From contig DBYQ01000058.1 of assembly GCA_002310015.1 (NCBI GenBank), positions 1 to 63,380 on the forward strand: 63,380 nucleotides of DNA, in the 5' to 3' direction. Of this stretch, positions 7,446 to 58,436 are shown in pieces. The position numbers and the translations under genes were made by a program. The stretch is from Bacteroidales bacterium UBA1182. GTDB lineage: Bacteria > Bacteroidota > Bacteroidia > Bacteroidales > Bacteroidaceae. Numbering within the stretch: the first letter of the stretch is position 1; each line of letters begins with the position of its first letter. The notes under the pieces are model-generated. The model ran no database searches and was not told where the DNA came from. It was given only the letters and a program-made list of their open reading frames with translations.

Positions 7446-7466
7446 CATTTTTTAGAGAAAAGAGAT

Positions 7467-11465: not shown

Positions 11466-12626
11466 ATGGACGAGAATATGAACAATGCGCCTATGACGGA
11501 TGAAGGGGAGGGTATAGATATAATGGTGCTGGTAAAACAGCTATGGGACGGCCGTAAGACTGTAATAATCTGGACCTGTGTGTTCATGGCGTTAGGCCTG
11601 ATAGCCGCATTTACCATGATTCGTAAATACGAGGTGAGTACTGTAATGGTTCCCCAGCTGAACTCCAAGCAAAACGCATCATTGAGCAGTCTGGCATCAC
11701 TTGCGGGATTTGACTTGAGTACGGTCAATACGGGTAGTGAGCTATCGCCGCTTATCTATCCGCAGATTGTGGGCAGCGTTACTTTCATGAAAGAACTGAT
11801 GTACACTCCGCTTCATTATGCTAAGTGTGATACCGCTATCTGCATGTTTGATTATGCGCAGAGTGATTATGCCAAGCCTTCAGTGGTAGGTGCTATATTT
11901 GGAGGTTTAATAAAATATACCATCGGATTGCCGCGTGTGATCCTTAAAGCTATTAGAGGAGAGAAAGAGCCTATAGTATTACCTGAAGGTGAAGGTACGG
12001 CCGATAATACCCCCAAGCCAGTGGTTATAAGTGAGGATGAGGAGGAGATCCTTAAGGAACTTGCAGAAAATGTTTCACTTGCAGTTGATAAGAAAGAAGG
12101 TTATATCACTCTGAATGTAATAGGTTCAGAGCCTATACAGGCTGCGGAACTGGCCATGAAGGCGCAGCAACTGCTTCAGGAGGAACTTACACGTTTCCGT
12201 ATTGAGAAATCAGAAAGTGAGCTGGAATATATCCAGGCCCGTTATAATGAGATAAAATCGGAGACTGAGTCATATCAGGAGCAACTGGCCAGGATTACAG
12301 ACCGTTCACAAAGTGTGACCAATACACGTGACCGCATTGAGCGTGACCGCATCCAGACCAAGTACTCTATCTCAAGTTCCATTTACAGTGAACTGGCCAA
12401 GCAGTTGGAGCAGGCCAAGATGCAGGTTAAGAAGGATACTCCTGTGTTTACTGTAATCCAGCCTATTACTGTTCCTAATAAGCCTTCAAACAGCCGTGCA
12501 AAGACTCTTATCATATGGACGTTCTTTGGCGTGGTTTTGGGCTGTGGCGTGGTTCTGGGGAAGGAGTATTTGCCTAAGCTTTTGGCTCAGTTTAAAGACG
12601 AGGAGGAGGAAAAGATTGAAAATTGA
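11466..12626 (+). CDS. Wzz-like chain-length determinant protein (no kinase domain)
   Basis: N-terminal IDIMVLVKQLWDGRKTVII plus a TM segment, a coiled-coil middle and a C-terminal TM segment. The final residues KIEN and the stop are encoded by a heptamer array. Confidence 0.7.
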   Translation: MDENMNNAPMTDEGEGIDIMVLVKQLWDGRKTVIIWTCVFMALGLIAAFTMIRKYEVSTVMVPQLNSKQNASLSSLASLAGFDLSTVNTGSELSPLIYPQIVGSVTFMKELMYTPLHYAKCDTAICMFDYAQSDYAKPSVVGAIFGGLIKYTIGLPRVILKAIRGEKEPIVLPEGEGTADNTPKPVVISEDEEEILKELAENVSLAVDKKEGYITLNVIGSEPIQAAELAMKAQQLLQEELTRFRIEKSESELEYIQARYNEIKSETESYQEQLARITDRSQSVTNTRDRIERDRIQTKYSISSSIYSELAKQLEQAKMQVKKDTPVFTVIQPITVPNKPSNSRAKTLIIWTFFGVVLGCGVVLGKEYLPKLLAQFKDEEEEKIEN

Positions 12627-12835
12627 AAATTGAAAATTGAAAATTATAAAAAAGGTTCGGAAATTTTCCGAACCTTTTTTAATGTCGCGGGAATTAAAGC
12701 AGGTGTTTTTTTACGCAGGTGCTTGTAATTTTCAATTTTCAATTTTCAATTATGTAACTTCGTTCCATGATTTTTGTCACGACTCGGTCAAACAAGCAAG
12801 CTTGATGACTCTCGCTGCTCCAAAAATTTTCAATT
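12615..12835. repeat. heptamer-armed cassette H1 (module A plus module B)
   Basis: (ATTGAAA)x4 at 12615-12645, then a terminator hairpin, then the AATGTCGCGGG and TTACGCAGGTGC boxes, then (TTTTCAA)x3 at 12727-12751. Module B (cgttccatgatttttgtcacgactcgg...ctgctccaaaaattttcaatt) runs to 12835. Confidence 0.9.
12648..12680. terminator. bidirectional rho-independent terminator hairpin (cassette core)
   Basis: aaaaaaggttcggaaattttccgaacctttttt: an A-tract, a 9-bp stem and a T-tract, between convergent genes. Confidence 0.7.
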
Positions 12836-12838
12836 CGC

Positions 12839-13822
12839 TTAGAGCATGTTTTCTTTTGCCATGGGAGACCAGGGACCATCCTGAGCCATGAAGATGATTG
12901 AAAGCTCCGTGACCTCAAAGGTGTGCCACTGGCCTTTGGGGATGTTCACACCGAACACGCCGGTATCGCCACCCATGTGTATGCGCTGAATCTCAATGCC
13001 CTTGTCATTATAGAATACGGTATCCATGCGGCCACGCATGAGCATTACTGTCTCACTTGAGAGGTTGTGCTTGTGAATGGCTGTTTTGGTGCCGGGCAGC
13101 ATGACGTTGAGCAGACGCTGTGACTGATCCTCTTCAGTGTTGCGCAGGTCATAGTTCATACGCAGACGCGGTGACTCCTGAGCCAGCATCTGTATCTTGT
13201 TGAGCAGGGTGTCATCAAGAACTACCTGACGCTCCAGGAATTTACGGTCAATGCCCTTGAACACGCGGAACATGGCCTTGCGTACAGCTTCAATATCGCC
13301 ACATTCACCATCTACCTCATGATACTTGCCGTTGTTCTTATAATAGGTGATAAGCGGCTCGGTCTGCTTGTGGTAGGTTGCTATGCGATTCTTGATGGTC
13401 TCCTCATTGGCGTCATCGGCACGGCCTTCAATCTGGGCACGATGCGAGAGGCGTTCCTTAATGGTCTCATCCTTAATCATTATGGAGATTACGGCATTGA
13501 CCTTCTCACCGCGGCGGGCAAGCATCTCATCCAGGTCTGACGCCTGGCCAAGTGTGCGGGGGAACCCGTCAAGGAGGAATCCTGCCACATTCTTATATGT
13601 ATTGAACGTGTTCTCAATCATTCCCTCAACAACGCTGTCAGGTACCAGATTACCTGCGTCAATAAGCTCTTTGGCCTGCTTGCCAAGTTCTGTGCCTGCT
13701 GCTATCTCTGCACGGAGCATCTCACCGGTGCTTATGTGCTTGAGGTTATATTTTTGAGAGATGGCACCTGCCTGTGTGCCTTTACCTGCCCCTGGAGGGC
13801 CGAATAGGATGTAGTATTTCAT
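12839..13822 (-). CDS. adk: adenylate kinase fused to a C-terminal WbuC-like cupin domain
   Basis: N-terminal half: GPPGAGKGTQ P-loop, ISTGEMLR and GFLLDGFPRT. C-terminal ~130 aa: LPGTKTAIHKHNLSSETVMLMRG...GQWHTFE, a cupin pattern. It is a single uninterrupted 327-aa ORF. Confidence 0.75.
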   Translation of the reverse strand: MKYYILFGPPGAGKGTQAGAISQKYNLKHISTGEMLRAEIAAGTELGKQAKELIDAGNLVPDSVVEGMIENTFNTYKNVAGFLLDGFPRTLGQASDLDEMLARRGEKVNAVISIMIKDETIKERLSHRAQIEGRADDANEETIKNRIATYHKQTEPLITYYKNNGKYHEVDGECGDIEAVRKAMFRVFKGIDRKFLERQVVLDDTLLNKIQMLAQESPRLRMNYDLRNTEEDQSQRLLNVMLPGTKTAIHKHNLSSETVMLMRGRMDTVFYNDKGIEIQRIHMGGDTGVFGVNIPKGQWHTFEVTELSIIFMAQDGPWSPMAKENML

Positions 13823-15392: not shown

Positions 15393-15394
15393 AA

Positions 15395-15954
15395 AATTGA
15401 AAATTGAAAATTGAAAATTGAAATTTTTTATCATGAGAGACAATGTTTTACATAGTAAAAGCAGAGATTTTGCTATACGCATTATTAACTGTTACAAATA
15501 TCTGAATAGTGAAAAACAGGAATATATCATGTCTAAACAACTTCTACGTTGTGGGACAAGTATTGGAGCTAATACTATAGAAAGTAAGAACGCTCAAAGT
15601 CGTCCTGATTTTCTAAGTAAACTCAATATTGCATTGAAGGAGGCCGATGAAACCAGTTACTGGTTGGACCTCCTTCATGTTTGCAATTATATTAATGACG
15701 AATCTTTCAACTCATTAGATAAGGATTGTCGTGAAATAATCGGTTTATTAACTACAATCATCAAAAGACTAAAACAATCAACTTTCTAATTTTCAATTAA
15801 CAACTTCGTTGTTGATTTTTGTCGCGTTCAATGGTCTTTACACCCCCTTCGTTTCCCCCGTTATCGGGGGACAGAAACGGGATAGCCCAAGCGAGCTTAG
15901 TCTCTCCTCTCACTGCTCCAAAAATTTTCAATTTTCAATTTTCAATTTTCAATT
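15395..15954. mobile_element. heptamer-armed cassette H2 carrying a four-helix-bundle gene plus module B
   Basis: (TTGAAAA)x4 at 15395-15425, the CDS at 15433-15789, an internal aattttcaatt at 15788-15798, module B with an extra insert, and (TTTTCAA)x4 ending at 15954. Same layout as H1, with the ORF in place of the terminator module. Confidence 0.6.
15433..15789 (+). CDS. four-helix-bundle protein (23S rRNA intervening-sequence protein / Avd-like family)
   Basis: SRDFAIRIINCYKYL, QLLRCGTSIGANTIES and ALKEADETSYWLDLL are characteristic of the four-helix-bundle S23p family. The DNA is markedly AT-rich. Confidence 0.8.
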   Translation: MRDNVLHSKSRDFAIRIINCYKYLNSEKQEYIMSKQLLRCGTSIGANTIESKNAQSRPDFLSKLNIALKEADETSYWLDLLHVCNYINDESFNSLDKDCREIIGLLTTIIKRLKQSTF

Positions 15955-18009: not shown

Positions 18010-18927
18010 ATGCCTCTCAAACTGCCCGATAAACTGCCTGCAATAGAGATTCTTAAGGGGGAGAACATCTTTGTGATGGACACCTCAAGGGCATCGCATC
18101 AGGATATACGTCCGTTGCGTATTGTCATCTTGAACCTGATGCCCATAAAGATTACGACAGAGACAGACCTGATACGTCTGCTCTCAAATACGCCTTTGCA
18201 GATTGAGCTTAAGCTGATGAAACTGCGCAGTCATACATCGAAAAACACCCCCGTGGAGCATATGAGGGTGTTTTATCAGACGTTTGAGAGCTTACGTGAT
18301 GAGAAATTTGACGGCTTTATCATAACCGGAGCTCCGGTGGAGCATATGGAGTTTACGGATGTGGAGTACTGGAATGAGCTGACCGAGATTATGGATTGGG
18401 CCAGGACTCATGTGACATCGACCCTGTATATTTGTTGGGCCGCGCTTGCCGGACTGTATCATTTTTACGGAGTGCCCAAGTATCAGCTCAAGAACAAGAT
18501 GTTCGGTATTTTCAAGCACAATACCACCCGTGAGCCGCTGCCTATCTTCCGCGGTTTTGATGATGAGTTCTATGCTCCTCACAGCCGTCATTCTGAGCTG
18601 CGTCGTGATGATATTCTGAGCCATCCTGACCTCAAGCTGCTCTCTGAGTCCGATGAGGCCGGGGTGTTCATGGTATCGGCACGTAATGGTCGTGAGATTT
18701 TCATTACCGGTCACTTTGAGTACTCTCCTGATACTCTTGACAAGGAGTACAAGCGTGACTTGGATAAGGGGCTTCCGATAGATATTCCCAAGCACTATTA
18801 CCGGGGCGATGATCCGTCTCAGGGGCCTTTGGACCGGTGGCGGGCTCATGCCAATCTGTTCTATCAGAATTGGCTTAATTATTATGTTTATCAGGAGACT
18901 CCGTATAACCTTCAGGACATTAGGTAA
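18010..18927 (+). CDS. metA: homoserine O-acyltransferase (MetA family)
   Basis: MPLKLPDKLPAIEIL, LRIVILNLMP, FDGFIITGAPVE and ICWAA match the MetA family. Confidence 0.85.
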   Translation: MPLKLPDKLPAIEILKGENIFVMDTSRASHQDIRPLRIVILNLMPIKITTETDLIRLLSNTPLQIELKLMKLRSHTSKNTPVEHMRVFYQTFESLRDEKFDGFIITGAPVEHMEFTDVEYWNELTEIMDWARTHVTSTLYICWAALAGLYHFYGVPKYQLKNKMFGIFKHNTTREPLPIFRGFDDEFYAPHSRHSELRRDDILSHPDLKLLSESDEAGVFMVSARNGREIFITGHFEYSPDTLDKEYKRDLDKGLPIDIPKHYYRGDDPSQGPLDRWRAHANLFYQNWLNYYVYQETPYNLQDIR

Positions 18928-19100
18928 ATTGAAAATTGAGAATTGAAAATTGAGAATTGAAAATTGAAAATTGAAAATTGTAAAAAGCCTTCGAAATGGA
19001 TTTCGAAGGCTTTTTAATGTCGCGGGCTATTACGCAGATATTTGTAACGCAGGTGCTTGTTAATTTTCAATTTTCAATTTTCAATTCTCAATTTTCAATT
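18927..19100. repeat. heptamer-armed cassette H3 (module A)
   Basis: Eight TTGA(A/G)AA units at 18927-18979, a hairpin, the AATGTCGCGGG box, two ACGCAG(G/A)T boxes, and TTTTCAA/TTCTCAA units at 19062-19100. Confidence 0.9.
18982..19015. terminator. bidirectional terminator hairpin (cassette core)
   Basis: aaaaagccttcgaaatggatttcgaaggcttttt. The stem sequence differs from the other cassettes but keeps the same architecture. Confidence 0.65.
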
Positions 19101-19141
19101 TATACTTATAATTCAGTATTGATAATGCAGGGGATTGGTTG

Positions 19142-24223: not shown

Positions 24224-24329
24224 ATTGAAAATTTTTGGAGCAGTGAGAGCCATCAAGCTTGCTTGTTTGGCCGAGTCGCGACAAAAATCAACAACGAAGT
24301 TGTTAATTGAAAATTGAAAATTGAAAATT
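24223..24329. repeat. heptamer-flanked cassette H4 (module B only)
   Basis: aattgaaaatttttggagcagtgagagccatcaagcttgcttgtttggccgagtcgcgacaaaaatcaacaacgaagttgttaattgaaaattgaaaattgaaaatt. It is the reverse complement of the module B seen in H1. Confidence 0.9.
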
Positions 24330-24460
24330 AGGCGCTTCGCTTGGTGAAAGCGTCCCTTCGGGCCGAGTGGAAAATTTGTATATTGGGGTTTTAACTTTGG
24401 GGATTAAACCTTATATATGTAGAAAGAATCAAATTATAAACCTTAAATACAATTAAGCAA

Positions 24461-25437: not shown

Positions 25438-25582
25438 AATTGAGAATTGAAAATTGAAAATTGAAAATTACATGCACTTGCGTAAAAAGCACCTGCGTTA
25501 ATTCCCGCGACATTAAGAAAGGGTTCGGAGACTTCCGAACCCTTTCTTATAATTTTCAATTTTCAATTCTCAATTTTCAATT
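25438..25582. repeat. heptamer-armed cassette H5 (module A, inverted relative to H1)
   Basis: Left arm aattgagaattgaaaattgaaaattgaaaatt, then gcacctgcgtta and cccgcgacatt boxes, a hairpin, and right arm aattttcaattttcaattctcaattttcaatt. Confidence 0.9.
25515..25548. terminator. bidirectional terminator hairpin (cassette core)
   Basis: aagaaagggttcggagacttccgaaccctttctt between convergent genes. Confidence 0.6.
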
Positions 25583-32331: not shown

Positions 32332-33515
32332 CAGCAATGATATTTGTAAGAAAGGCGATCAGGAGATGTGTGTTATTTGCATTTCTCCTCATTATGGTTT
32401 CATGTGAAAAGACTCAGGACCTTAGGAATGATACGACAAAAACCGTGTTGGTTTATATGGCCGCAGACAATAATCTTTCAGCTTTTGCCCGGAGGAACAT
32501 CTATTCAATGCGTAGTTCCATGGGCTCTGACCTGGATTTTGCCAACCTGCTGGTTTTTGTTGACAGACAAAGTGTAAATCCCGTGCTGTTGCACATTCAT
32601 GACTACAGGATTGATACCGTTAAGGTTTATGATAAACTGAACAGCGCGGATGCATCGGTACTGAAGGAGGTCATTGAAACTGTAACAGATAACTGGAAGG
32701 CCGAATCCTATGGCCTGGTCTTGTGGTCACACGGTATGGCATGGGTGCCTAAACCGCAGATGCATACTATTGCAAGTGACCAAGGATGGGCCCCGATGCG
32801 TGAGAGACCCAAGACAAAGACTTTTGCCGCAGAAAACCTGCCTGACGACAAATACACCTGTATGGAGATTGATGATCTTGTTGATGCCATTCCGGAGGGA
32901 GTATTTGATTACATTGCATTTGATGCATGTTATATGGGCAGTGTGGAGGTGGCTTATGCACTGAGGAACAAGACTAAATACATTATATCATCCAGCTGTG
33001 AGATTGTGGATGAGGGCTTTCCGTATGGGACCGTTACACGTGATTTCATAAACGGCAATCTCCTGAAGATGTGCAGCGAGTTCTATTCATATTATAACAG
33101 GCAATCAGGATGGCATCAGACTGCAAGCATATCGCTGGTTGATACGGATGGTCTGGATAGCCTTGCCAGGTGTTTCAGGAAGATAGTAGCTGCACATAAG
33201 AGTGAGATTCCCACATTGGACATAAGTGACATACAGCATTGTGACAGATTTAACAAACACATAATGTTTGACCTGGAGGATTTTGTGGATAAACTGGGAA
33301 CAGAGAGGGATGACCTTATGGAATTCCGCCTTCAGCTTGAAAAATGCATACTGTATAAGAATGCCACTCCATATATATGTCTGGATGATCCAAAGTGGAT
33401 AAAGATGGTATCATTCAGCGGATTAAGCGTCTATATTCCTTTGGAGACTTTTGAGGCATCGGGACTTAATGATGATTATCGGGATACGGAATGGAGTCGG
33501 GATACGGAGTATTAA
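32328..33515 (+). CDS. clostripain-family (C11) cysteine peptidase lipoprotein
   Basis: VLVYMAADNNLS, VLWSHGMAW (His) and FDACYMGSVEVAY (Cys). Lipobox MVSC. ATGA overlap with the upstream gene. Confidence 0.75.
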   Translation: MTAMIFVRKAIRRCVLFAFLLIMVSCEKTQDLRNDTTKTVLVYMAADNNLSAFARRNIYSMRSSMGSDLDFANLLVFVDRQSVNPVLLHIHDYRIDTVKVYDKLNSADASVLKEVIETVTDNWKAESYGLVLWSHGMAWVPKPQMHTIASDQGWAPMRERPKTKTFAAENLPDDKYTCMEIDDLVDAIPEGVFDYIAFDACYMGSVEVAYALRNKTKYIISSSCEIVDEGFPYGTVTRDFINGNLLKMCSEFYSYYNRQSGWHQTASISLVDTDGLDSLARCFRKIVAAHKSEIPTLDISDIQHCDRFNKHIMFDLEDFVDKLGTERDDLMEFRLQLEKCILYKNATPYICLDDPKWIKMVSFSGLSVYIPLETFEASGLNDDYRDTEWSRDTEY

Positions 33516-33546
33516 GAATTAAGAATTGAAAATTGAAAATTGAAAT
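33514..33546. repeat. solo heptamer array H6
   Basis: aagaattaagaattgaaaattgaaaattgaaat directly after the C11 stop, with no internal module. Confidence 0.85.
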
Positions 33547-33577: not shown

Positions 33578-35902
33578 ATGAAGAAGCTTTTGACGTTTAC
33601 AGTCCTGCTTGGTGCGGGGCTGATTGTATTTGGTTGCAAGGGGGATCCTACATTGCCTCGTGATGTTAAGAATTACGATGATCCGCTCATGCAGCATGAG
33701 AAAGAGATATCGGGCATAATAAGCAAGATGACACTTGAGGAGAAGGTGGCAATGCTGCACGGCAAGCATATGTTTACATCTGAGGGTGTTCCGTCACAGG
33801 GTATTGCCGATATGGTTTATGCCGACGGTCCCTTTGGTATCCGTGAGGAGATGGAACCTCATTCATGGAACTCTCTGCATCTTACTACAGACTCTGCCAC
33901 TTTCTTCCCTACAGGATCGGCCCTGGCTGCAACCTGGAGTGATGGGATAGCTTATCTTTATGGAACAGGTATGGCCCGTGAGGCCCGTCTGCGTGGTAAG
34001 GATATGATTTTAGGACCTGCTATCAATATCCAGCGTATTCCTACCGGCGGACGTACATACGAGTATCTGAGTGAGGATCCGTATCTGAGTTCAGTGCTGT
34101 CAGTAGCATATACCAAAGGTGTTCAGAACAACGGCGTGGCTGTTTGTGTAAAGCATTTTGCACTGAATAACCAGGAGACCAACCGCGGTAGTGTGAACGT
34201 TATTGTAAGCCCGCGTGCCATGCGTGAGATATATCTGCCTCCGTTTGAGGCAACAGTGGTTGAGGGTAACGCATTCGGTGTGATGTCGGCTTACAACAAG
34301 ATCAACGGTTACTGGTGTGCCGAGAACTATGAGTTGCTTAACTCTATCCTGCGTAAGGACTGGGGATTCAAGGGTATGGTGATATCAGACTGGGGCGGCA
34401 CTCACAGCACTGTCGAGTCTGTCGTTGCCGGTCTGAACGTGGAGATGCCTAACTCTCAGTATCTGGGCCAGGCTCTGCTGGATTCAGTTGCAGCCGGTGC
34501 TGTGTCTGAGGATGTTATCGATGAGCGTGTGCGTGAGATTCTGCGCGTGCGCCTGGCTGTTGACCCGGTCCCTGAGAATAAGGCAAATGTTGAGATGACT
34601 GCCAAACCTGAGCAGGCTCAGATTGCATATCAGGTGGCTTTACAGTCTATAGTTCTGCTTAAGAATGAAGGCAGTCTGTTGCCTATAGATTTGAATAAGG
34701 TCAAGACTATTGCCGTAATAGGTGATAATGCCGACAAGATTATGGCTACAGGTGGAGTAGGTGCCGGTGTAAAGGCTCTGTATGAGATTACTCCTCTGGC
34801 CGGTCTTAAGAACCGTATTGGTGATAAGGCCAAGATTGTTTATGCCCAGGGTTATACTTCACAGCAGGCTCGCGGTGGATTTGGAGGATTCGGTGGTGGT
34901 TTTGGCGGTTTTGGCCGTCGTGGCGGTGCTACTGCTACTCCCGCTAAGCCTGACGATACTGCCAAGAAGCTGCAGGATGAGGCTGTAAAGGTAGCCAAGA
35001 GTGCCGATATGGTGCTGTTCATCGGTGGTGATAACCGTTCACATGAGACTGAGGGTAGTGACCGCCGCAGCATGGATCTGCCTTATAATCAGGAAAATGT
35101 GCTTGAGGCAGTAGCTAAGGTCAATCCCAACGTGGTATTCATTGCAGTTGCAGGCGCTCCGGTTGACCTTAACCGTGTTCAGGCCTGCTGTCCTGCAATT
35201 GTCCAGTCATGGTTTAACGGTACAGAGGGTGGCAATGCTTTGGCTGATATTCTTACGGGTGAGTCTTCACCGAGCGGCCGTCTGCCTTTCTCATATCCCT
35301 TCAATCTTGAGGACAGCCCCGCATATGCCACAGGCAGTTTTCCGCAGACCGATGCTCCCGTAAATCAGGATGTATTTGTATCACTGGTTCAGGAGGACAG
35401 CAAGGCTGAGGAGATGCTTAAAGGCGCTACCGGTCGTGGCACAGCTCTCTACAGCGAGGACATGCTGGTGGGTTACCGCTGGTTTGATACCAAGCAGAAG
35501 CCGGTGATGTATCCTTTCGGTTACGGACTGGGTTATTCTGAGATTGAGTATTCAGACTTTGCCGCAGACAAGAGTGAATATCGTGACGGTGAAGTAATTA
35601 CAGTGACATTAAAGGCCCATAATAAAGGCAAATATGTACAGTGTGATGTTCCGCAGGTATATGTACACCGTGTTGATTCAAAGATAGAATGGCCTTACAA
35701 GGAGCTTAAGGGATTCACTAAGACAGTGATTTATATTAATCCGGATCCCACCGATGTGGAAATAAAAATACCGGTTGAGTCACTCAAGTACTGGGATGAG
35801 GCCAAACATGATTGGGTTCTGGAGCCCGGTAAGATTGAACTGCTGCTGGCTCATGATGCCGGCAATGTGGCAGGCAAAGTTGAATTGAGAATTGAGAATT
35901 GA
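33578..35902 (+). CDS. glycoside hydrolase family 3 (beta-glucosidase-like) lipoprotein
   Basis: GPAINIQRIPTGGRTYEYLSEDPYL, KHFALNNQE and VISDWGG (nucleophile Asp). The inter-domain linker contains ARGGFGGFGGGFGGFGRRGG. The C-terminus LRIEN and the stop are encoded by a heptamer array. Confidence 0.85.
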   Translation: MKKLLTFTVLLGAGLIVFGCKGDPTLPRDVKNYDDPLMQHEKEISGIISKMTLEEKVAMLHGKHMFTSEGVPSQGIADMVYADGPFGIREEMEPHSWNSLHLTTDSATFFPTGSALAATWSDGIAYLYGTGMAREARLRGKDMILGPAINIQRIPTGGRTYEYLSEDPYLSSVLSVAYTKGVQNNGVAVCVKHFALNNQETNRGSVNVIVSPRAMREIYLPPFEATVVEGNAFGVMSAYNKINGYWCAENYELLNSILRKDWGFKGMVISDWGGTHSTVESVVAGLNVEMPNSQYLGQALLDSVAAGAVSEDVIDERVREILRVRLAVDPVPENKANVEMTAKPEQAQIAYQVALQSIVLLKNEGSLLPIDLNKVKTIAVIGDNADKIMATGGVGAGVKALYEITPLAGLKNRIGDKAKIVYAQGYTSQQARGGFGGFGGGFGGFGRRGGATATPAKPDDTAKKLQDEAVKVAKSADMVLFIGGDNRSHETEGSDRRSMDLPYNQENVLEAVAKVNPNVVFIAVAGAPVDLNRVQACCPAIVQSWFNGTEGGNALADILTGESSPSGRLPFSYPFNLEDSPAYATGSFPQTDAPVNQDVFVSLVQEDSKAEEMLKGATGRGTALYSEDMLVGYRWFDTKQKPVMYPFGYGLGYSEIEYSDFAADKSEYRDGEVITVTLKAHNKGKYVQCDVPQVYVHRVDSKIEWPYKELKGFTKTVIYINPDPTDVEIKIPVESLKYWDEAKHDWVLEPGKIELLLAHDAGNVAGKVELRIEN

Positions 35903-36017
35903 AAATTCTTGGAGCAGTGAGAGGAGAGACTAAGCTCGCTTAGGCTATCCCGAGTCGCGACAAGAATCATGGAACGAAGTGACATAATTGAGAATTGAGT
36001 TTTCAGTTTTGCAATTT
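35883..36017. repeat. heptamer-flanked cassette H7 (module B)
   Basis: aattgagaattgagaattgaaaatt, then cttggagcagtgagaggagagactaagctcgcttaggctatcccgagtcgcgacaagaatcatggaacgaagtgacat, then aattgagaattgag and degenerate ttttcagttttgcaattt. Confidence 0.9.
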
Positions 36018-47537: not shown

Positions 47538-50096
47538 ATGAGAAAGATTTTATTAGTCCTAAGCGTGTTTGCGCTTACGTGTGCATCGGCCATTGCTGCC
47601 GATAACAAAGGCATTTCATTTAATGAATTATCCGGTGACAGATTTACCCTTATTGAGAACGGCAAACCCGTGCAGATTCTGGCCGATGAGGCTGATAAGA
47701 GCGGTGTTCAGATTGCTCTGAAGGCTTTGCAGAAGGATTTCAAGGCTGTAGCAGGGCAGGAGGCTAAGGTGATTTATGATGCAGCCGGCATAAGCGGTAA
47801 GCCTGTGATTGTAGGTACAATTGACAGCAAGTACATTGCCCAGATTATCAAGGCTAAGAAGATCAACAAGAAGGATCTGCAGGGCAAGCGTGAAAAGTAC
47901 ATCATGACTGTTGTGGAGAATCCTATCAAGGGTATTGATGAGGCTATGGTGATTGCAGGTAGCGATATGCGCGGTGCCATTTACGGTATATATGAATTGT
48001 CTGAGCAGATTGGCGTATCTCCCTGGTACTACTGGGCTGACGTTCCAATTGAGCATCAGGATAACATTTCATTGGCTAAGGGCACTTATACCGCAGGTGA
48101 GCCTGCAGTGACCTATCGTGGCATATTCCTGAATGATGAGGCTCCGTGCCTTACCACATGGGTCAAGAATACATTCGGCACACAGCGCGGCGGACATGAG
48201 TTCTACGCATGCTGCTTTGAACTGATCCTGCGTCTGCGCGGTAACTTTATGTGGCCCGCCATGTGGGACTGGGCATTCTATGCTGATGATCCTGAGAACT
48301 CCAAGACAGCCAATGACATGGGCGTGATAATGGGAACATCTCACCATGAGCCGATGGCCCGCAACCATCAGGAATGGGCCCGTAACCCCAAGGCATACGG
48401 CGGCCAGTGGGACTATACCACCAACAAGCAGGAGCTGCAGAGGTTCTTCCGTGAGGGCGTGGAGCGCGCCAAGAATACCGAGGACCTTATTACTATAGGT
48501 ATGCGCGGTGACGGCGATGCCGAACTGCGCGGCAGCGACGAGGACAATATGAAGATGCTGGAGGGCCTCTTTGCCGACCAGCGCCAGATAATCAAGGAGG
48601 TAACCGGAAAGCCTGCCGAGCAGCGTCCGCAGGTATGGGCACTCTACAAGGAGGTTCAGACCTATTATAACAAGGGTTTGCGCGTGCCTGACGATGTGAT
48701 CATCCTTTTGTCCGATGACAACTGGGGCGATATCCGCCGTCTGCCCAATGCCGAGGAGCGCAAGCGTAAAGGCGGCTGGGGTATGTACTATCATGTGGAC
48801 TATGTAGGTGCACCGCGTAACTCAAAGTGGTTGAATATCACTCCGATACAGCACCTTTGGGAGCAGATGCAGCTTACATACGATTACGGAGTTGACAAAA
48901 TCTGGGTGCTTAATGTTGGTGACCTCAAGCCTATGGAGTATCCCATCACACTGTTCCTGGATATGGCCTGGAACCCCACATCATTCACCGTTGACAACCT
49001 GCTGGATCACACCTACGAGTTCTGCAAGGAGTTCTTCGGTGAGGAGGAGGCTCAGGAGGCTGCTCGCATACTGAACCTTTGCTGCAAGTACAACGGCCGT
49101 ATAAGCGCCGAGATGCTTGATGCCCGTCAGTACTACACACTTGAGACCGGTGAGTTTGAGCAGGTTTGCGATGATTACGCACGTCTGGAGGCTGAGGCTC
49201 TGCGTCAGTATCTGAGACTCAAGCCTGAGTACCGCGATGCTTATCAGCAGATAATACTGTTCCCCGTACAGGCTATGGGTAACATCTATGACATGTACTA
49301 CAGCCAGGCCATGAACCAGAAGCTGGCCCGCAACAATGATCCGGCTGCAAACTACTGGGCTGAGCGTTGCGAGCGTGACTTTAAGCGTGATGCCGAGCTC
49401 TGCGCCTATTATAATAAGGAGATGGCCGGCGGCAAGTGGAACGGCATGATGATCCAGAAGCACATTGGCTATACATCATGGAACGATAATTTCCGCGCCG
49501 ATACACAGCCGCGCGTAAGCCGCGTTGAGGTGGGAGAGAAGAATGGAGGATACGTTTTCACTCAGAAGGATGGCGTTGTTGCCATGGAGGCTGAGCACTA
49601 CTATTCACAAAATGCAGTTACCACCGGTTCAGCCAAGTGGACTACAATTCCTTTCATGGGCCGAACGCTGTCAGGCGTGGCTTTGATGCCTTACAGCCAG
49701 CCTACCGATGGCGCCAGCATGACCTATAAGTTCAATCTTAATGATGATGTTGATAATCTCTCAGCTGTGATTGCAGTTAATGCCACATTGACATTCTACC
49801 GTCTTGAGGGACACCGCTACATGGTAAGCCTGGATGGCGGTCAGGAGGTTGAAGTTGTGTTCAATGAGCGTCTGAATGAGGATCAGCGTAACATTTACTC
49901 AGTTTACTATCCCACAGTTGCTACCCGTGTCAAGGATGACCGCGTACAGCTGGGCAAGGCTGCCAAGGGCGAGCATACACTGACTATCCGTCCTATTGAG
50001 CCGGGAACCGTGTTTGAGAAGGTTGTGATTGATGCTGGCGGGTATATTAAGAGCTATCTCTTCATGCCGGAGTCTCCGTACGTCAGGGAAAATTGA
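47538..50096 (+). CDS. glycoside hydrolase family 115-like protein (alpha-glucuronidase)
   Basis: Signal peptide. GSDMRGAIYGIYELSEQIGVSPWYYWADVP and YRGIFLNDEAP blocks as in GH115. The last codons and the stop fall in a heptamer array. Confidence 0.65.
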   Translation: MRKILLVLSVFALTCASAIAADNKGISFNELSGDRFTLIENGKPVQILADEADKSGVQIALKALQKDFKAVAGQEAKVIYDAAGISGKPVIVGTIDSKYIAQIIKAKKINKKDLQGKREKYIMTVVENPIKGIDEAMVIAGSDMRGAIYGIYELSEQIGVSPWYYWADVPIEHQDNISLAKGTYTAGEPAVTYRGIFLNDEAPCLTTWVKNTFGTQRGGHEFYACCFELILRLRGNFMWPAMWDWAFYADDPENSKTANDMGVIMGTSHHEPMARNHQEWARNPKAYGGQWDYTTNKQELQRFFREGVERAKNTEDLITIGMRGDGDAELRGSDEDNMKMLEGLFADQRQIIKEVTGKPAEQRPQVWALYKEVQTYYNKGLRVPDDVIILLSDDNWGDIRRLPNAEERKRKGGWGMYYHVDYVGAPRNSKWLNITPIQHLWEQMQLTYDYGVDKIWVLNVGDLKPMEYPITLFLDMAWNPTSFTVDNLLDHTYEFCKEFFGEEEAQEAARILNLCCKYNGRISAEMLDARQYYTLETGEFEQVCDDYARLEAEALRQYLRLKPEYRDAYQQIILFPVQAMGNIYDMYYSQAMNQKLARNNDPAANYWAERCERDFKRDAELCAYYNKEMAGGKWNGMMIQKHIGYTSWNDNFRADTQPRVSRVEVGEKNGGYVFTQKDGVVAMEAEHYYSQNAVTTGSAKWTTIPFMGRTLSGVALMPYSQPTDGASMTYKFNLNDDVDNLSAVIAVNATLTFYRLEGHRYMVSLDGGQEVEVVFNERLNEDQRNIYSVYYPTVATRVKDDRVQLGKAAKGEHTLTIRPIEPGTVFEKVVIDAGGYIKSYLFMPESPYVREN

Positions 50097-50205
50097 GAAT
50101 TGAAAATTATAAAAAAGGTTCGGAAAACTCCGAACCTTTTTTAATGTCGCGGGTTATTACGCAGGTGCTTGTTAATTTTCAATTTTCAATTTTCAATTCT
50201 CAATT
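50091..50205. repeat. heptamer-armed cassette H8 (module A)
   Basis: aattgagaattgaaaatt, a hairpin, AATGTCGCGGG, TTACGCAGGTGCTTGTT, then aattttcaattttcaattttcaattctcaatt. Confidence 0.9.
50111..50142. terminator. bidirectional terminator hairpin (cassette core)
   Basis: aaaaaaggttcggaaaactccgaacctttttt between convergent genes. Confidence 0.7.
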
Positions 50206-57300: not shown

Positions 57301-58308
57301 TACAGCCAGATGCTTATAAACATGCATAACGGAACCATTAAGGCCGGCAATCGTACGGACGGACAGAAGGGTAGTGTATTCTCTTTCCGCCTGCCGCTTG
57401 GAAACAGTCATATAGCAAAAGAGGATATGGTTGATCCAGAGGAGGTTGTGCGCCAGCAACTGGACCGCAACAGGGCAAGTATGGATCTGGATGAACCGGA
57501 AGAAACCAACCAGGCTAAAGGAACCTTTAAAGTGCTGGTTGTGGATGATGATGATTCAATGCTTGATTATCTGACAGACAGTCTCAAACAGAGCTACAAG
57601 GTGATTACCGCTCGTAACGGCAAGGAGGGACTGAAGATTGCCGTATCACAGATCCCTGATATTATATTAACTGATGTGGTTATGCCTGAGATGGATGGCA
57701 TCCAACTGGTAAAGGCACTTAAGGGTAACTCACTGGTAAGCCATATCCCTGTCATCATGCTGTCAGGCAAGAACAAGCTTCAGGACCGTACTTTAGGACT
57801 TGATACCGGTGCAGACAGCTATCTGCCCAAACCGTTCTATATCAGTGAGCTTAAGTCACTTATGGCCAACCTTATCAATAACCGCCTCATCGTTAAGGGC
57901 AAGTACTCAGGCCAGCAGGAACAGGCAGAACAGGTGGCTCCCGTACAGTTTGAATCAAGTGACGAGCTGTTCATGAAGCGTGTCATGTCAATTGTCAACA
58001 AGAACATCTCAAACAGCGAGTTCAATATATCCTTCATGGTTGACGAGGTGGGTATGAGCCGCACGCAGCTGCATCGCAAGCTGAAGGAACTTACCGGATT
58101 CTCCGCTGCAAGGTTCCTGCAGAATATCCGCATGCAACAGGCCATGAAACTGCTCAAGGAGAAGAAGGTGAACGTTTCCCAGATTGCCTACAGCGTAGGT
58201 TTCTCTTCACAGACACACTTCTCTACCACCTTCAAGCAGTACTACGGCGTTAGCCCCACGGAGTATATTAAGCAGATTGAAGCTGAAGAGAAAAAAATTG
58301 AAAATTGA
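54328..58308 (+). CDS. hybrid two-component system sensor kinase / response regulator with AraC-type HTH (HTCS)
   Basis: Periplasmic beta-propeller repeats (WIGT.NGL), a TM segment, the HisKA H-box FINVAHEICAPM, an HATPase domain, a REC domain (VLVVDDDD...TDVVMPEMDG) and a C-terminal AraC HTH. The final KIEN and the stop come from a heptamer array. Confidence 0.9.
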   Translation: MRKPIIALLTALCIAITANAQRIYHFPIGQVSDNRFHAICEDLSGFMWIGTENGLNRYDGYNFHQFFHDDNDSLSLLSNYVRSLYIDADGTLWIGTNRGLQYLRSSEKSFHTVPFPGSRSPYIEKISQFSDGKIWIAARGNGIFWVDPKDPVQANSVVSVNTFSTAQRVFRTLLEDQEGTIWLGSTTGILLYDPKTDKITEFRPDMLDHDITGINKDENGNVYITTNNHLYMWNSDRRTLTRLTPDEGIWEITHSFIDKDGLKISIRGKGLLALTNERKLERVELKPFDRSLEKLDVSAYYRDKADNIWIGCFLSDYILVTKERNEFDYWKFSDYQEDVSGTVTAMITDTKGRLWIGYNNNSLTCMSNEGEVLKEGKGSAYINCMFRDNRNRIWVGYPNGGLAILDTETGRLRPVMTNEYSNVSSIAEDLQGRIYYSELGSGFSRLDPSDMKPALYTSFAQSGRNGQWLSNDWIHTMVVDSWNRLWIGHDNGVDCFDVDHNTFLPNNKILAAMGTSGCTCILEEGNGIMWFGTTKGVIIYDSTNGETRLLNTSKGLSNDDIRGMIKDNDGYVWVATPNGLNRINSENLEISRFFTEEKAFNRVSAFSAVDGRAYFGSNAGITAFSPYNITTGSKVNQVIMTGFYLNGEQITHESLSGGKRISEKPLSMSDQFRLAYRDNSFTLEFSTLNYGDEASLIYEYSLNPDKREWTSNPAGVNRFTFSRLGFGRYTLSVRARLNDIVSEPKTYNIKIEAPWYATSLAVCIYLIIVLAILMVIFKLRRKSREREMDEAKFQSFINVAHEICAPMTMVISPLEDMLRDDNTPATMLPNLRQMHKSSTRILSLINQLLDMRKYDEGQMQLHFAETDLINFLMGPFELYTQTAEKRNINFRFNHPMVEQPVWIDRDSIDKVMMNLLSNAFKYTPDDGTIEIDVEVGTDDHESGPLHNYVEVSVIDTGIGLDKDDVNRVFQRFYRVDNDVTSVTMGMGIGLNYSQMLINMHNGTIKAGNRTDGQKGSVFSFRLPLGNSHIAKEDMVDPEEVVRQQLDRNRASMDLDEPEETNQAKGTFKVLVVDDDDSMLDYLTDSLKQSYKVITARNGKEGLKIAVSQIPDIILTDVVMPEMDGIQLVKALKGNSLVSHIPVIMLSGKNKLQDRTLGLDTGADSYLPKPFYISELKSLMANLINNRLIVKGKYSGQQEQAEQVAPVQFESSDELFMKRVMSIVNKNISNSEFNISFMVDEVGMSRTQLHRKLKELTGFSAARFLQNIRMQQAMKLLKEKKVNVSQIAYSVGFSSQTHFSTTFKQYYGVSPTEYIKQIEAEEKKIEN

Positions 58309-58436
58309 GAATTGAAAATTGAAAATTATAAAATAGGTTCGGAAATTTTTTCCGAACCTATTTTAATGTCGCGGGCTATTTAACGCAGGTGCAAGTTACG
58401 CAGGTGCGTGTAATTTTCAATTTTCAATTTTCAATT
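58296..58436. repeat. heptamer-armed cassette H9 (module A)
   Basis: aattgaaaattgagaattgaaaattgaaaatt, a hairpin, AATGTCGCGGG, two ACGCAGGTGC boxes, then aattttcaattttcaattttcaatt. Confidence 0.9.
58330..58364. terminator. bidirectional terminator hairpin (cassette core)
   Basis: aaaataggttcggaaattttttccgaacctatttt between convergent genes. Confidence 0.65.

What the first reader, a model, noticed from the sequence alone, without database searches (positions are those of the whole stretch)
12615..12835. Heptamer-armed cassette family: a portable three-frame stop plus bidirectional terminator
Ten loci (H1-H10 in the feature list) are built from arrays of the heptamer TTGAAAA/TTGAGAA and its complement TTTTCAA. 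In the module A cassettes (12615-12751, 18927-19100, 25438-25582, 50091-50205, 58296-58436) the arrays are inverted. They enclose an A-tract/stem/T-tract hairpin, a conserved AATGTCGCGGG box and one or two ACGCAGGTG boxes. The period is 7, so three consecutive units place TGA in all three reading frames. Because the arms are inverted, this holds for genes approaching from either side. The opposite reading direction (TTTTCAA) is stop-free in all frames. The hairpin stem differs between copies (GGTTCGGAA/TTCCGAACC against GCCTTCGAA/TTCGAAGGC) while the architecture is kept. Four of the five module A copies sit between convergent genes. I do not know a described element with this design.
Basis: partly seen in the sequence, partly recalled or inferred. 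Interest (0 to 1): 0.75.

Follow-up and report, generated by a model that had tools for sequence, protein, structure and literature searches.

The report
Heptamer-armed terminator cassettes, kin of IVS elements
The reported cassettes are real, occur in many rumen Bacteroidales genomes, most likely act as two-way transcription stops, and share their seven-base-repeat arms with small insertable gene units (the "intervening sequence" protein family) found in several bacterial phyla, which offers a lead on the long-unexplained excess of seven-base repeats between bacterial genes.

Summary
Five cassettes in the window share one plan: (AATTGARAA)n arm, a 14-17 bp A-tract/stem/T-tract hairpin, an invariant AATGTCGCGGG box, 1-2 ACGCAGGTG boxes, and an inverted arm. 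About 40 more copies occur in rumen and gut Bacteroidales MAGs. Stems vary with compensatory changes (29 unique stems, 444 Watson-Crick pairs, 14 transition-type mismatches, 0 other) while box 1 stays exact. This fits a bidirectional intrinsic terminator plus an unexplained recognition box.

The arms are not private to the cassette. The same inverted heptamer arrays directly abut TIGR02436/PF05635 "four helix bundle" genes (the 23S rRNA intervening-sequence protein family) in the window (15393-15954), in 4 of 4 independently sampled rumen homologs, and, with lineage-specific units, in 15 plasmid records from five phyla.

Filled versus empty sites (GSHPx-TrxB) show that arms plus ORF insert as one unit and that the left arm supplies the upstream gene's stop codon.

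Cassette cores flip orientation at five orthologous loci. Arrays and modules show presence/absence variation. There is no target-site duplication.

Closest prior art: the Coxiella IVS heptamers, Xanthomonas GGGAATC paired arrays and cyanobacterial STRRs. Termination and the mobility mechanism are inferred, not shown.

The parts
12615..12645 (+). Cassette A1 left arm, (ATTGAAA)4.4. The stop codon (TGA, ends at 12626) of the Wzz-like gene 11466-12626 lies inside it.
12647..12681 (.). A1 hairpin TAAAAAAGGTTCGGAA-ATT-TTCCGAACCTTTTTTA, 16 bp, -19.6 / -19.9 kcal/mol on the two strands. Putative bidirectional intrinsic terminator.
12681..12691 (+). A1 box 1, AATGTCGCGGG. Invariant in all copies seen.
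12697..12721 (+). A1 box 2 region: AAGCAGGTG (12697-12705) and ACGCAGGTG (12713-12721).
12727..12751 (-). A1 right arm, (AATTTTC)3.6, the inverted complement of the left arm.
12752..12835 (-). Module B: TTTGGAGCAG, a variable hairpin, GAGTCGTGACAAAAATC, then a small hairpin. It is nested between heptamers downstream of the adenylate kinase gene 12839-13822(-).
18926..19101 (+). Cassette A2, between the co-directional metA and feoAB. Arms 18926-18984 and 19062-19101, hairpin 18981-19016 (GCCTTCGAAA stem), box 1 19016-19026, box 2 19047-19055.
25438..25582 (-). Cassette A3, core reversed. Arms 25438-25469 and 25551-25582, box 1 25504-25514(-), hairpin 25514-25549, box 2 25475-25483 and 25490-25498(-).
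50088..50205 (+). Cassette A4. Arms 50088-50108 and 50174-50205, hairpin 50110-50143, box 1 50143-50153, box 2 50159-50167. The GH115 gene stops in the first heptamer.
58294..58436 (+). Cassette A5. Arms 58294-58327 and 58412-58436, hairpin 58329-58365, box 1 58365-58375, box 2 58383-58391 and 58398-58406. Identical in an independent cow-rumen contig (L115).
15393..15954 (+). ORF-bearing heptamer-armed unit: (TTGAAAA)4 at 15393-15423, the TIGR02436/PF05635 four-helix-bundle gene at 15433-15789, a module B variant at 15790-15922, and (TTTTCAA)4 at 15923-15954. The whole unit and both arrays are absent in RUG10916 (L058) and L243 and present in L244.
24226..24385 (+). Composite gene end: a single heptamer, module B (24232-24305), array (24305-24329), module C (24330-24375) and a heptamer. 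The orthologous site is empty in L038. L026 and L073 have arrays plus module C only.
33511..33545 (+). Solo sense array right after the stop of the peptidase C11 gene, in a 62-nt co-directional spacer.
35882..35990 (+). Array that supplies the stop codon of the GH3 gene (33578-35902), followed by module B.
59800..59831 (+). Array lying in frame inside MutS2 (59316-61862, - strand). The gene reads it in the stop-free antisense direction (..NSQFSTLNSQL..).

Best explanation
Module A cassettes are the ORF-less members of a family of small units bounded by inverted arrays of a 7-nt repeat. The ORF-bearing members carry a TIGR02436/PF05635 'four helix bundle' gene, the protein family found in 23S rRNA intervening sequences.

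In this rumen Bacteroidales lineage the unit is AATTGAN. The ORF-less core is a 14-17 bp hairpin with an A-tract on one side and a T-tract on the other, followed by an invariant AATGTCGCGGG box and looser ACGCAGGTG boxes.

How it most likely works:
1. The hairpin terminates transcription arriving from either side (inferred from anatomy and position).
2. Each arm faces its neighbouring gene in the TGA-containing direction. A unit that lands at or in a gene's 3' end therefore closes the reading frame within three units (shown for five window genes and for one filled/empty pair).
3. The two arms are perfect complements of 14-49 nt, and the shorter arm is at least 21 nt in four of the five cassettes. 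They allow inversion, copy-number change and exchange of cores between loci (shown as outcomes). In any read-through RNA they would pair into a long duplex, like the RNase III-cleaved stem of rRNA intervening sequences (analogy only).
4. Box 1 is under strong sequence constraint and is probably a protein or RNA recognition site. Its role is unknown.

How the units move is unknown. The TIGR02436 protein is the obvious candidate partner.
For: **Architecture and excess over chance:**

**Family beyond the window:** 32 heptamer-flanked copies in rumen and gut Bacteroidales MAGs. Ten more were recovered without using the boxes, and 9 of those 10 have an exact box 1.

**Hairpin constraint:** 29 unique stems with 444 Watson-Crick pairs, 9 G.T, 5 A.C and 0 other mismatches. 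Compensatory changes occur even inside the A/T tracts. Folding energy is -19.5 to -25.5 kcal/mol on both strands.

**Position:** 4 of 5 window cassettes lie between convergent genes. All 30 convergent array pairs under 220 nt hold the core, and there are no divergent pairs.

**Equivalent features in relatives:** ordinary bidirectional terminators at the same gene ends in genomes without arrays.

**Stop supply:** 12 of 49 window genes have an array of 2 or more units starting -17 to +11 from the stop codon, always in the sense direction. Five of these genes stop inside the array.

**Arms shared with TIGR02436 genes:**
- the window unit 15393-15954 and L244;
- 4 of 4 rumen homologs chosen by protein similarity only;
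- 15 plasmid records from Cyanobacteriota, Chloroflexota, Spirochaetota, Bacteroidota and Bacillota, where period-7 arrays lie on both sides in 16 of 20 loci and on at least one side in 20 of 20;
- in a 50-kb Nostoc segment the only genes enclosed by convergent heptamer pairs are the two TIGR02436 genes, and three further pairs are ORF-less with 70-140 nt cores.

**Insertion as a unit:** GSHPx-[arms+ORF]-TrxB in L258-261, against GSHPx directly followed by TrxB with no arrays in L280-283.

**Dynamics:** core orientation differs at orthologous sites A1, A3 and A4 and at two further loci. Arrays are gained or lost at about 93% flank identity.

**Published parallel:** in the Coxiella IVS the same ORF family is preceded by 2-4 tandem heptamers (GACAGAT), within termini that form a 28-bp stem cut by RNase III (PMC4990558).
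Against: - Apart from the arms, module A cores and the ORF-bearing units share no sequence. Common descent of the whole unit is therefore not shown.
- No clean empty site was found for module A itself. At A3 and A4 it is present in every relative examined.
- There is no target-site duplication (0 of 39 with 3 nt or more), and no enzyme is identified.
- Termination was not measured. No transcript data were available.
- The stop-codon property is absent from the units of several other lineages, so it may be a by-product of an A/T-rich unit.
- The wobble pattern shows no strand bias (9 against 5), so a DNA-level palindrome maintained by template switching cannot be excluded.
- Similar A/T-rich heptamer arrays occur in many low-GC metagenome contigs without any cassette.
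Confidence: 0.6

Rival explanations
1. There is no element at all. Heptamer arrays are slippage-generated microsatellites that grow in A/T-rich gene ends. A 'cassette' is just two convergent genes' arrays on either side of a lineage-typical terminator.
For: - Copy number varies between orthologous sites, for example 2 against 5 units.
- Solo arrays exist.
- There is no target-site duplication.
- Cassettes A3 and A4 are positionally conserved.
- Over-representation of heptameric repeats has been attributed to polymerase slippage (cited in PMC4692102).
Against: - A2 has both arms although its neighbours are co-directional.
- The right arms of TIGR02436 units lie antisense directly upstream of co-directional genes.
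- Empty sites carry no arrays at all, so arrays arrive together with the insert.
- The same core with an exact 11-nt box recurs at unrelated loci and in genomes with only about 70% flank identity.
- There are no divergent pairs.
Confidence: 0.12
2. It is a classical MITE. The arms are terminal inverted repeats recognised by a conventional transposase encoded elsewhere in the genome, and the terminator and boxes are passengers.
For: - The cassettes are small, ORF-less, multi-copy and intergenic, with inverted termini.
- Short-read assemblies break in the arms.
- Related units show presence/absence variation.
Against: - There is no target-site duplication.
- Arm length is highly variable.
- Stems have diverged into 29 variants while box 1 stays exact. 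This points to old copies under selection, not a recent burst.
- The only gene type found between such arms is TIGR02436, which is not a known transposase.
- The one candidate 'long' copy (L045) proved to be unrelated genes.
Confidence: 0.12
3. The conserved part is an RNA. It would be either a small RNA or a 3'UTR module read from the box 2 side (...CACCUGCGU..CCCGCGACAUU-hairpin-UUUUUU), with the boxes as a seed or protein-binding site and the hairpin as its own terminator.
For: An invariant single-stranded box next to a structurally conserved but sequence-variable terminator hairpin is typical of sRNA families. Module B shares the syntax hairpin, T-run, GTCGCG.
Against: - No recognisable promoter was seen by eye, but no Bacteroidota promoter model was run.
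- Orientation relative to the flanking genes flips freely.
- The spacer between the boxes varies by 3-8 nt.
- There is no Rfam match at gathering or permissive thresholds.
- Hundreds of copies with the same 'seed' would be unusual.
Confidence: 0.1
4. The boxes are dsDNA signals that reside in terminators, in the way Neisseria and Haemophilus DNA-uptake sequences do, or they are binding sites for a roadblock or nucleoid protein. The arms would be unrelated.
For: - Box 1 is exact in every copy.
- Box 2 sometimes occurs as an inverted pair that itself forms the hairpin: L242/243 ACGCAG-AAC-CTGCGT followed by T7, and L205. Uptake sequences occur in terminators in the same way.
Against: - Box 1 occurs only inside cassettes, at about 1 per 12 kb.
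- No uptake system or binding protein is known.
- The boxes are never found without at least one arm.
Confidence: 0.06

Closest known systems
23S rRNA intervening sequences (IVS) encoding S23p, e.g. Coxiella burnetii and Leptospira (PMC4990558)
   Same: - The ORF family is the same (PF05635/TIGR02436).
[quoted passage not shown]
- Tandem heptamers with strain-variable copy number sit directly upstream of the ORF.
- They are regarded as selfish elements of unknown mobility.
   Different: - IVS elements sit in helix 25 or 45 of the 23S rRNA and are excised by RNase III. The units here sit between protein-coding genes.
- Module A has no ORF. It carries a terminator hairpin plus conserved boxes instead.
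- The unit sequence differs (GACAGAT against AATTGAN).
Intergenic heptameric repeat arrays of Xanthomonas (GGGAATC) and Nostoc (GGGGAYT), and cyanobacterial STRR heptamers (PMC4692102)
   Same: - The arrays have period 7 with 2-26 units.
- About 90% are intergenic.
- They lie much closer to the upstream ORF's end (about 28 nt) than to the next ORF.
- There are 70-75 convergent inverted pairs per genome.
- Lengths vary between related species.
   Different: - Those arrays are G-rich and were interpreted as G-quadruplex formers. AATTGAN cannot form G4.
- No conserved core, terminator or associated gene family was reported for them.
Terminator-carrying MITE-like repeats such as Neisseria Correia elements, and mosaic repeats such as E. 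coli BIMEs or pneumococcal BOX (from my own knowledge; reviewed in PMC3184786)
   Same: - They are short, ORF-less, multi-copy intergenic units with inverted ends.
- They are modular mosaics.
- They can act as terminators or RNA-processing sites and lie next to gene ends.
   Different: - Correia elements have fixed 26-bp inverted repeats and a TA duplication.
- REP/BIME stems are sequence-conserved with a GTAG-type head and are linked to RAYT transposases.
- None has tandem-heptamer arms or the boxes seen here.
BrickBuilt MITE of Porphyromonas gingivalis (PMC4596501)
   Same: It is a Bacteroidota intergenic repeat that combines a tandem repeat with small inverted ends.
   Different: - The tandem repeat is an internal 23-nt minisatellite, not the arms.
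- It carries promoters rather than a terminator.
- It is located 49-591 nt from genes rather than at stop codons.

Membership tests
Bidirectional intrinsic (Rho-independent) terminator | G+C-containing stem-loop followed by a U-tract, with a matching A-tract upstream so that the opposite strand reads the same | tested here: met
   The stems are 14-17 bp and the T-runs 4-6 (TTTCTT in A3), with mirrored A-runs. Folding energy is -19.5 to -25.5 kcal/mol on both strands.
Bidirectional intrinsic (Rho-independent) terminator | Located downstream of stop codons, typically between convergent genes | tested here: met
   4 of 5 window copies lie between convergent genes. Ordinary terminators occupy the same gene ends in relatives.
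Bidirectional intrinsic (Rho-independent) terminator | Transcript 3' ends map to the U-tract in vivo or in vitro | not testable with these tools
   No transcript data are available for these uncultured genomes.
MITE | Short, ORF-less, multi-copy, with terminal inverted repeats | tested here: met
   The cassettes are 115-176 bp. There are 5 copies in 63 kb and about 40 more elsewhere, with inverted arms.
MITE | Target-site duplication flanking the inverted repeats | tested here: not met
   0 of 39 cassettes have a direct repeat of 3 nt or more outside the arms. The palindromic AATT at the arm ends cannot be scored.
MITE | Autonomous partner with the same termini that encodes a transposase | tested here: inconclusive
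   Units with the same arms do carry a gene, but it is TIGR02436, which has no known transposase activity.
MITE | Filled and empty sites among relatives | tested here: inconclusive
   Clean filled and empty sites were found for the ORF-bearing unit and for arrays and modules B and C. For module A only a variant core or absence with changed synteny was found.
REP/BIME (RAYT-associated) | Sequence-conserved imperfect palindrome with a conserved 5' tetranucleotide (GTAG-like) | tested here: not met
   The stem sequence is not conserved (29 variants) and there is no GTAG head.
IVS-type element (S23p/TIGR02436 unit) | Encodes a PF05635/TIGR02436 protein | tested here: not met
   Module A has no ORF. 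The sibling unit at 15393-15954 does encode one (TIGR02436, 109.7 bits; PDB 2RLD, E=6e-37).
IVS-type element (S23p/TIGR02436 unit) | Terminal inverted repeats that contain tandem heptamers and can form a long stem | tested here: met
   The arms pair in the predicted fold (-53.6 kcal/mol, z = -9.3). The same arm type surrounds TIGR02436 genes. Coxiella description.
IVS-type element (S23p/TIGR02436 unit) | Inserted in 23S rRNA helix 25/45 and excised by RNase III | tested here: not met
   All copies are between or at the ends of protein-coding genes. RNase III cleavage is not testable here.
Intergenic heptameric SSR arrays (Xanthomonas/Nostoc type) | Tandem 7-nt units, intergenic, nearer to the upstream ORF's end, single or in convergent pairs, with length varying between relatives | tested here: met
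   Definition from PMC4692102.
Intergenic heptameric SSR arrays (Xanthomonas/Nostoc type) | G-tracts able to form G-quadruplexes | tested here: not met
   The unit AATTGAR has a single G.
Inverton (phase-variable invertible segment) | Inverted repeats flanking a segment found in both orientations | tested here: met
   Both orientations are seen at five orthologous loci, but only between species-level relatives.
Inverton (phase-variable invertible segment) | Orientation-dependent promoter inside, a dedicated invertase, and both orientations within one population | not tested
   No Bacteroidota promoter model was run and no read-level data are available. By eye, no TAnnTTTG box was seen in the core.

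The most novel reading that the evidence does not exclude
Inverted tandem-heptamer arrays and TIGR02436/S23p 'four helix bundle' genes together form one widespread, so far unrecognised class of self-propagating unit. It would be present in Bacteroidota, Cyanobacteriota, Chloroflexota, Spirochaetota, Bacillota and Pseudomonadota. The Avd-like pentameric protein would recognise its own lineage-specific heptamer arrays. ORF-less derivatives, such as the terminator cassettes here, the paired GGGAATC arrays of Xanthomonas and the cyanobacterial STRRs, would be its non-autonomous offspring. This would explain the long-noted excess of heptameric repeats between bacterial genes and the origin of rRNA intervening sequences.
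Probability: 0.35. Interest if true: 0.85.

Novelty: new variant of a known kind. Interest (0 to 1): 0.7.

Why it matters
**For these rumen bacteria.** The cassettes are frequent: 5 cassettes and 6 further arrays in 63 kb, and 12 of 49 gene ends carry an array. They define where many genes and transcripts end, and they break short-read assemblies. Annotating them would improve gene-end calls and MAG contiguity.

**More broadly.** The arms connect three literatures that have not been joined in the papers I could search. These are the unexplained over-representation of heptameric repeats in bacterial intergenic regions, the cyanobacterial and Xanthomonas heptamer arrays, and the rRNA intervening sequences with their S23p ORF of unknown function.

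If the protein-array link holds, it gives a direct experiment: does a TIGR02436 pentamer bind its flanking heptamer arrays, and does it promote insertion, inversion or excision?

The unit is also a compact natural insulator, with stops in all frames from both sides plus a two-way terminator. That is of practical interest for Bacteroidota genetic engineering.

Tried and rejected
1. **tRNA origin of the boxes.** One viral hit (L121) has the two boxes as the two sides of a tRNA-Ile T-arm. However, 0 of 82 non-cassette genome hits lie in tRNAs, and Rfam shows no tRNA similarity. Rejected as coincidence.
2. **Phage carriage.** The core pattern gave only 3 chance hits in viral contigs, none with heptamers.
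3. **Known RNA family.** Nothing reached the gathering threshold. Permissive scans gave only generic terminator or long-hairpin resemblances.
4. **Coding potential of the core.** An ATG lies in box 1, but the spacer length varies by non-multiples of 3. Rejected.
5. **Strand of selection from wobble pairs.** 9 G.T against 5 A.C gives no significant bias.
6. **An autonomous 'long' copy in L045.** The distant array belongs to another intergenic region and the genes between are ordinary.
7. **Target-site duplication.** None found.
8. **The left-arm pattern as a family probe.** It is not specific. Most metagenome hits are low-GC contigs with similar arrays in other contexts.
9. **Y1-transposase (RAYT-like) link.** One IVP unit interrupts an ORF whose N-terminus looks like a Y1 transposase, inside a ~950-bp IS-like unit. 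Pfam gave no hit, so I left it as a side note.
10. **MAFFT/RNAalifold on the cores.** The alignment shifted the palindrome centre. I replaced it with per-copy anchoring.
Full report

Yes. The region 12615-12751 reads as follows: (ATTGAAA)4.4, ATTATAAAAAA-GGTTCGGAA-ATT-TTCCGAACC-TTTTTT, AATGTCGCGGG, AATTA, AAGCAGGTG, TTTTTTT, ACGCAGGTG, CTTGTA, (ATTTTCA)3.6.

Three consecutive TTGARAA units with up to 2 mismatches occur 41 times in the window, against none in 100 shuffles.

AATGTCGCGGG occurs exactly five times, each time inside a cassette. ACGCAGGTG occurs once or twice next to it. The five cassettes align over the whole core.

With a simple non-overlapping ORF map and Pfam, the neighbours are ordinary chromosomal genes: Wzz, adenylate kinase, GMP synthase, Lrp, metA, feoAB, GH3, GH115, a hybrid two-component regulator and MutS2. 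Four cassettes lie between convergent genes, and A2 lies between co-directional genes.

The arithmetic of the stops is correct. There is a TGA in all three frames in the sense direction and no stop in the antisense direction, for all four unit variants.

**2. The family outside the window**

A scan of one genome per species with the two boxes returned 114 stretches. Of these, 32 are flanked by heptamers, and all 32 come from uncultured rumen or gut Bacteroidales, Prevotellaceae or 'Bacteroidaceae' MAGs. The other 82 are chance matches in unrelated, mostly high-GC genomes.

Every true copy has the same order of parts.

Because that scan required the boxes, I ran a second scan of metagenomes using only the left arm and its junction. 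It recovered 10 cassette-type hairpins. Nine are followed by an exact ATGTCGCGGG, and the tenth is cut short by another repeat. Box 2 is looser: ACGCAGGTG, ACGCAGGTA or ACGCACYGCATGG, in 1-3 copies.

An independent cow-rumen assembly carries cassette A5 unchanged. Short-read contigs for the metA neighbour of A2 end inside the array.

**3. The hairpin**

I anchored each copy at the base of the stem. This gives 14-17 bp of pairing in all copies, 29 different stems among 43 copies, 444 Watson-Crick pairs, 9 G.T, 5 A.C and no other mismatch.

Compensatory changes occur at more than ten stem positions, including inside the A/T tracts (AAGAAA/TTTCTT, AAAATA/TATTTT).

The structure is therefore maintained while its sequence drifts. 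The lack of a strand bias in the wobble pairs fits use on both strands, but it does not exclude a DNA-level palindrome.

The hairpins fold at -19.5 to -25.5 kcal/mol on either strand, with T-runs of 4-6.

Relatives that lack arrays at the same gene ends carry plain A-tract/GC-stem/T-tract hairpins there. Examples are CAAAAAGCCCGGACCTTTTGGCCCGGGCTTTTTT after metA, and AAAAAATAATCTCGGGCTTTAAGCTCGAGATTATTTTT between GMP synthase and Lrp.

I infer a bidirectional intrinsic terminator. This is not measured.

**4. The arrays and gene ends**

Twelve of 49 window genes have an array of at least two units starting between -17 and +11 of the stop codon. Two more have a single unit followed by module B. 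All are in the sense direction. Five genes take their TGA from the array.

All 30 convergent (-> <-) array pairs closer than 220 nt contain the core, and there are no divergent pairs.

The one array inside a gene (MutS2) lies in the stop-free direction and is read through in frame.

Arrays can also occur in 5' leaders, as in L058.

**5. Comparison of orthologous sites**

Eight fetched loci are syntenic with the window at 70-96% identity.

- **Orientation flips.** At A1, A3 and A4 the flanking genes are conserved, but the core points one way in some genomes and the other way in others: A1 window against L058; A3 window and L026 against L038 and L073; A4 window, L032 and L005 against L010 and L083. 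Two more loci flip among the MAGs: L064/L014 against L072, and L022 against L098.
- **Hairpin type.** Hairpin types often differ between orthologous sites.
- **Arm length.** Arm copy number varies, for example 2 against 5 units.
- **Locus 24226-24460.** This site is empty in L038, has arrays plus module C in L026 and L073, and has an extra module B cleanly inserted inside the array in the window.
- **GMP synthase / Lrp.** RUG10916 and L243 lack both arrays there.
- **metA end.** After metA, the window has cassette A2. L242/243 have arms with a variant core whose hairpin is an inverted pair of box 2. L244 has nothing. More distant relatives have an ordinary terminator.
- **Target-site duplication.** None is present.

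So the system is dynamic. Module A itself, however, is old at A3 and A4, and I did not find a clean empty site for it.

**6. What the arms belong to**

The small gene at 15433-15789 is present in the window and in L244 but absent, together with both arrays, in RUG10916 and L243. It sits exactly between (TTGAAAA)4 and (TTTTCAA)4.

It is a TIGR02436 'four helix bundle protein' / PF05635 23S_rRNA_IVP, close to PDB 2RLD from Bacteroides.

I then chose four homologs (70-77% identity) purely by protein similarity and contig length. In all four loci, inverted arrays abut the start and stop codons: (AATTGAC/AATTGAT/AATTGAA)4-ATT-ATG ... TAA-(TTATCAA/TTGTCAA/TTCTCAA)4. Many other homologs sit on 500-1000 bp contigs, as expected if repeats flank them.

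In annotated plasmid records from five phyla the same holds with lineage-specific units: Nostoc AATTCGT/ACGAATT and GAGGTCG/TCCGACC, Euhalothece CCAGTGA/ACTGGTC, Planktothrix AATCCCC+AATCGTA/ACGATTT+GGGATTT, Gloeocapsa ATTTTAG/TCTAAAA, Chlorohelix GATGAAG/TTCATAA, Treponema CTCTCCG and Bernardetia TAGTGAT/ATCACTA.

TRF finds period-7 arrays on both sides in 16 of 20 loci and on at least one side in all 20.

As a control I scanned a 50-kb Nostoc segment. It holds five convergent heptamer pairs. Two enclose the two TIGR02436 genes, three are ORF-less with 70-140 nt cores, and none encloses any other gene.

**7. A clean filled/empty pair**

In L258-261 the order is GSHPx, [arms + TIGR02436 ORF], TrxB. 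In two relatives (TrxB 91% and 86% identical) GSHPx is followed directly by TrxB (TAATG overlap or an 8-nt spacer), with no array at all.

In the filled site the GSHPx frame ends ...AAC AAT TGA in the first heptamer, and the TrxB ATG follows the last heptamer immediately.

This shows three things: arms and ORF arrive as one unit, the arrays are not a pre-existing target, and the left arm's stop codon is actually used.

**8. Relation to published work**

The sequences themselves appear in no relevant paper.

The Coxiella 23S rRNA IVS carries an ORF of the same protein family. The ORF is preceded by 2-4 tandem heptamers (GACAGAT) whose number varies by strain. They lie within terminal inverted repeats that form a 28-bp stem cut by RNase III. 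The origin and mobility of IVSs are described there as unresolved (PMC4990558).

Rehm et al. described about 185 GGGAATC arrays per Xanthomonas genome. About 90% are intergenic. They lie on average 28 nt from the upstream ORF against 160 nt from the next one. There are 70-75 convergent pairs, and lengths vary between species. The authors proposed G-quadruplex formation and named no associated gene (PMC4692102).

I found no paper in the searchable library that links TIGR02436 genes to heptamer arrays or describes ORF-less derivatives with a terminator core. The library lacks many subscription papers, so this is not proof of absence.

**9. Interpretation**

- **Shown:** the architecture, its spread, stem covariation with box invariance, the sense orientation at gene ends, use of array stops, orientation flips, presence/absence of arrays, modules and the ORF unit, and the sharing of arm type with TIGR02436 units.
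- **Inferred:** termination in both directions; that module A and the ORF units are related beyond their arms; that inversion and core exchange run through the arms; and that read-through RNA would form an RNase III substrate.
- **Unknown:** the role of box 1 and box 2, and the agent of mobility. Modules A and B share the syntax hairpin, T-run, GTCGCG (TGTCGCG occurs 13 times against 5.4 expected, 8 of them in modules).
- **A caution on the three-frame stop:** it is real and used here, but units of other lineages lack stop codons. It is not a defining feature of the wider family.

**10. Verdict**

The finding is real and more interesting than a microsatellite. It is not without precedent. It is a new, well-defined Bacteroidales variant of heptamer-armed inverted-repeat units. 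Studying it exposes a cross-phylum association between such arrays and the IVS protein family that deserves direct testing.

Noticed in passing
window 517-8682, 19426-19483, 21740-21796, 42380-42392, 44896-44951, 59291-59303: This is a second stereotyped gene-end repeat. It consists of ~45-bp units around a GGGGTCWGACCCC palindrome and is often found as tandem or inverted pairs right after stop codons. There are 28 palindromes against 0.01 expected. It seems to occupy gene ends that lack heptamer arrays, and it replaces them in RUG10916 at the GMP synthase end.
   Followed up: partly
window 12752-12835(-), 24232-24305(+), 35908-35990(+), variant at 15790-15922(-); L022, L058, L071, L193, L241: Module B consists of conserved flanks (TTTGGAGCAG ... 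GAGTCGCGACAAAAATC) around a variable hairpin, plus a small second hairpin. It is always nested between direct heptamers with the same polarity. At 24232-24305 it is a clean insertion that two relatives lack.
   Followed up: partly
window 24330-24375; L005, L008, L026, L073: Module C (GCTTCGCTTKGTGAAAGCGYCCCTTCGGGYCGAGYGG) contains a UUCG-type loop. It is also nested between direct heptamers with fixed polarity. It is present at the A4 locus only in L005.
   Followed up: no
window 59800-59849: A heptamer array followed by a (GAATTATCT)2.6 repeat lies in frame inside the MutS2 linker. The gene reads it in the stop-free direction (..QNSDNSDNSQFSTLNSQLKSS..). It is identical in the cow-rumen contig L115.
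   Followed up: partly
L265, L269, L272, L274, L275, L276, L277 (plasmid records): TIGR02436 genes with their heptamer arms are often wedged inside defence operons. Examples: between hsdS and hsdR (Monoglobus), between a helicase gene and the gene after it (an N-6 DNA methylase in Chlorohelix; unnamed ORFs in Dolichospermum and Planktothrix), between cas2 and cas1 (Anabaena cylindrica), next to cas1 (Pseudanabaena), and between DUF1156 and a HEPN gene (Gloeocapsa).
   Followed up: no
L250 821-1773 and L252 822-1773: The same ~950-bp IS-like unit, with inverted ends GCCAGGGGGACAGGTCATTGACA, is present in two different gene neighbourhoods. Its ORF starts like a Y1 (IS200/RAYT-type) transposase (MPRQARKESGTGIFHVMMRGINHQNI). 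The ORF is interrupted by a TIGR02436 unit whose left arm supplies the stop. Pfam gave no hit for the remaining parts.
   Followed up: partly
L279 (Nostoc flagelliforme pNFSY06, record positions 140000-189999) 15754-15961, 23240-23426, 34400-34534: These are ORF-less convergent heptamer pairs with 70-140 nt cores, in the same replicon as two TIGR02436 units. One pair uses the same unit as its neighbouring TIGR02436 gene (CAATTCG/AATTGCG).
   Followed up: partly
L122-L241 (metagenome hits), e.g. L141, L195, L155: Many low-GC contigs carry 7-periodic AATTGAAAATT/AATTATAAATT/AATTGTAAATT arrays in other settings: upstream of dnaK (L141), just after the 16S rRNA 3' end (L195), and around a TIGR02436 gene with the opposite arm geometry (L155).
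   Followed up: no
L126, L131, L133, L137, L150, L152, L158, L159, L227, L239, L240: One locus, seen in many contigs (one of them from a human-gut metagenome), has inverted TTGAAAA/TTTTCAA arms around a ~30-nt core without a hairpin or boxes (AAAAACGGTCATTGTTCTTGGAACGGAATTT).
   Followed up: no
L045 6085-6175; L058 3380-3830 and L244 3950-4100: Two further repeats were seen in the related MAGs. One is a ~35-bp long inverted repeat (AGGGGCACAAAGGGGACGGTTCTTTTTGTGCCCCTC) that replaces the right arm of a cassette in L045. The other is a shared element, GGGTATTGGCAGGCAAAACCGTCGCCACCCTCGGCGCG.
   Followed up: no
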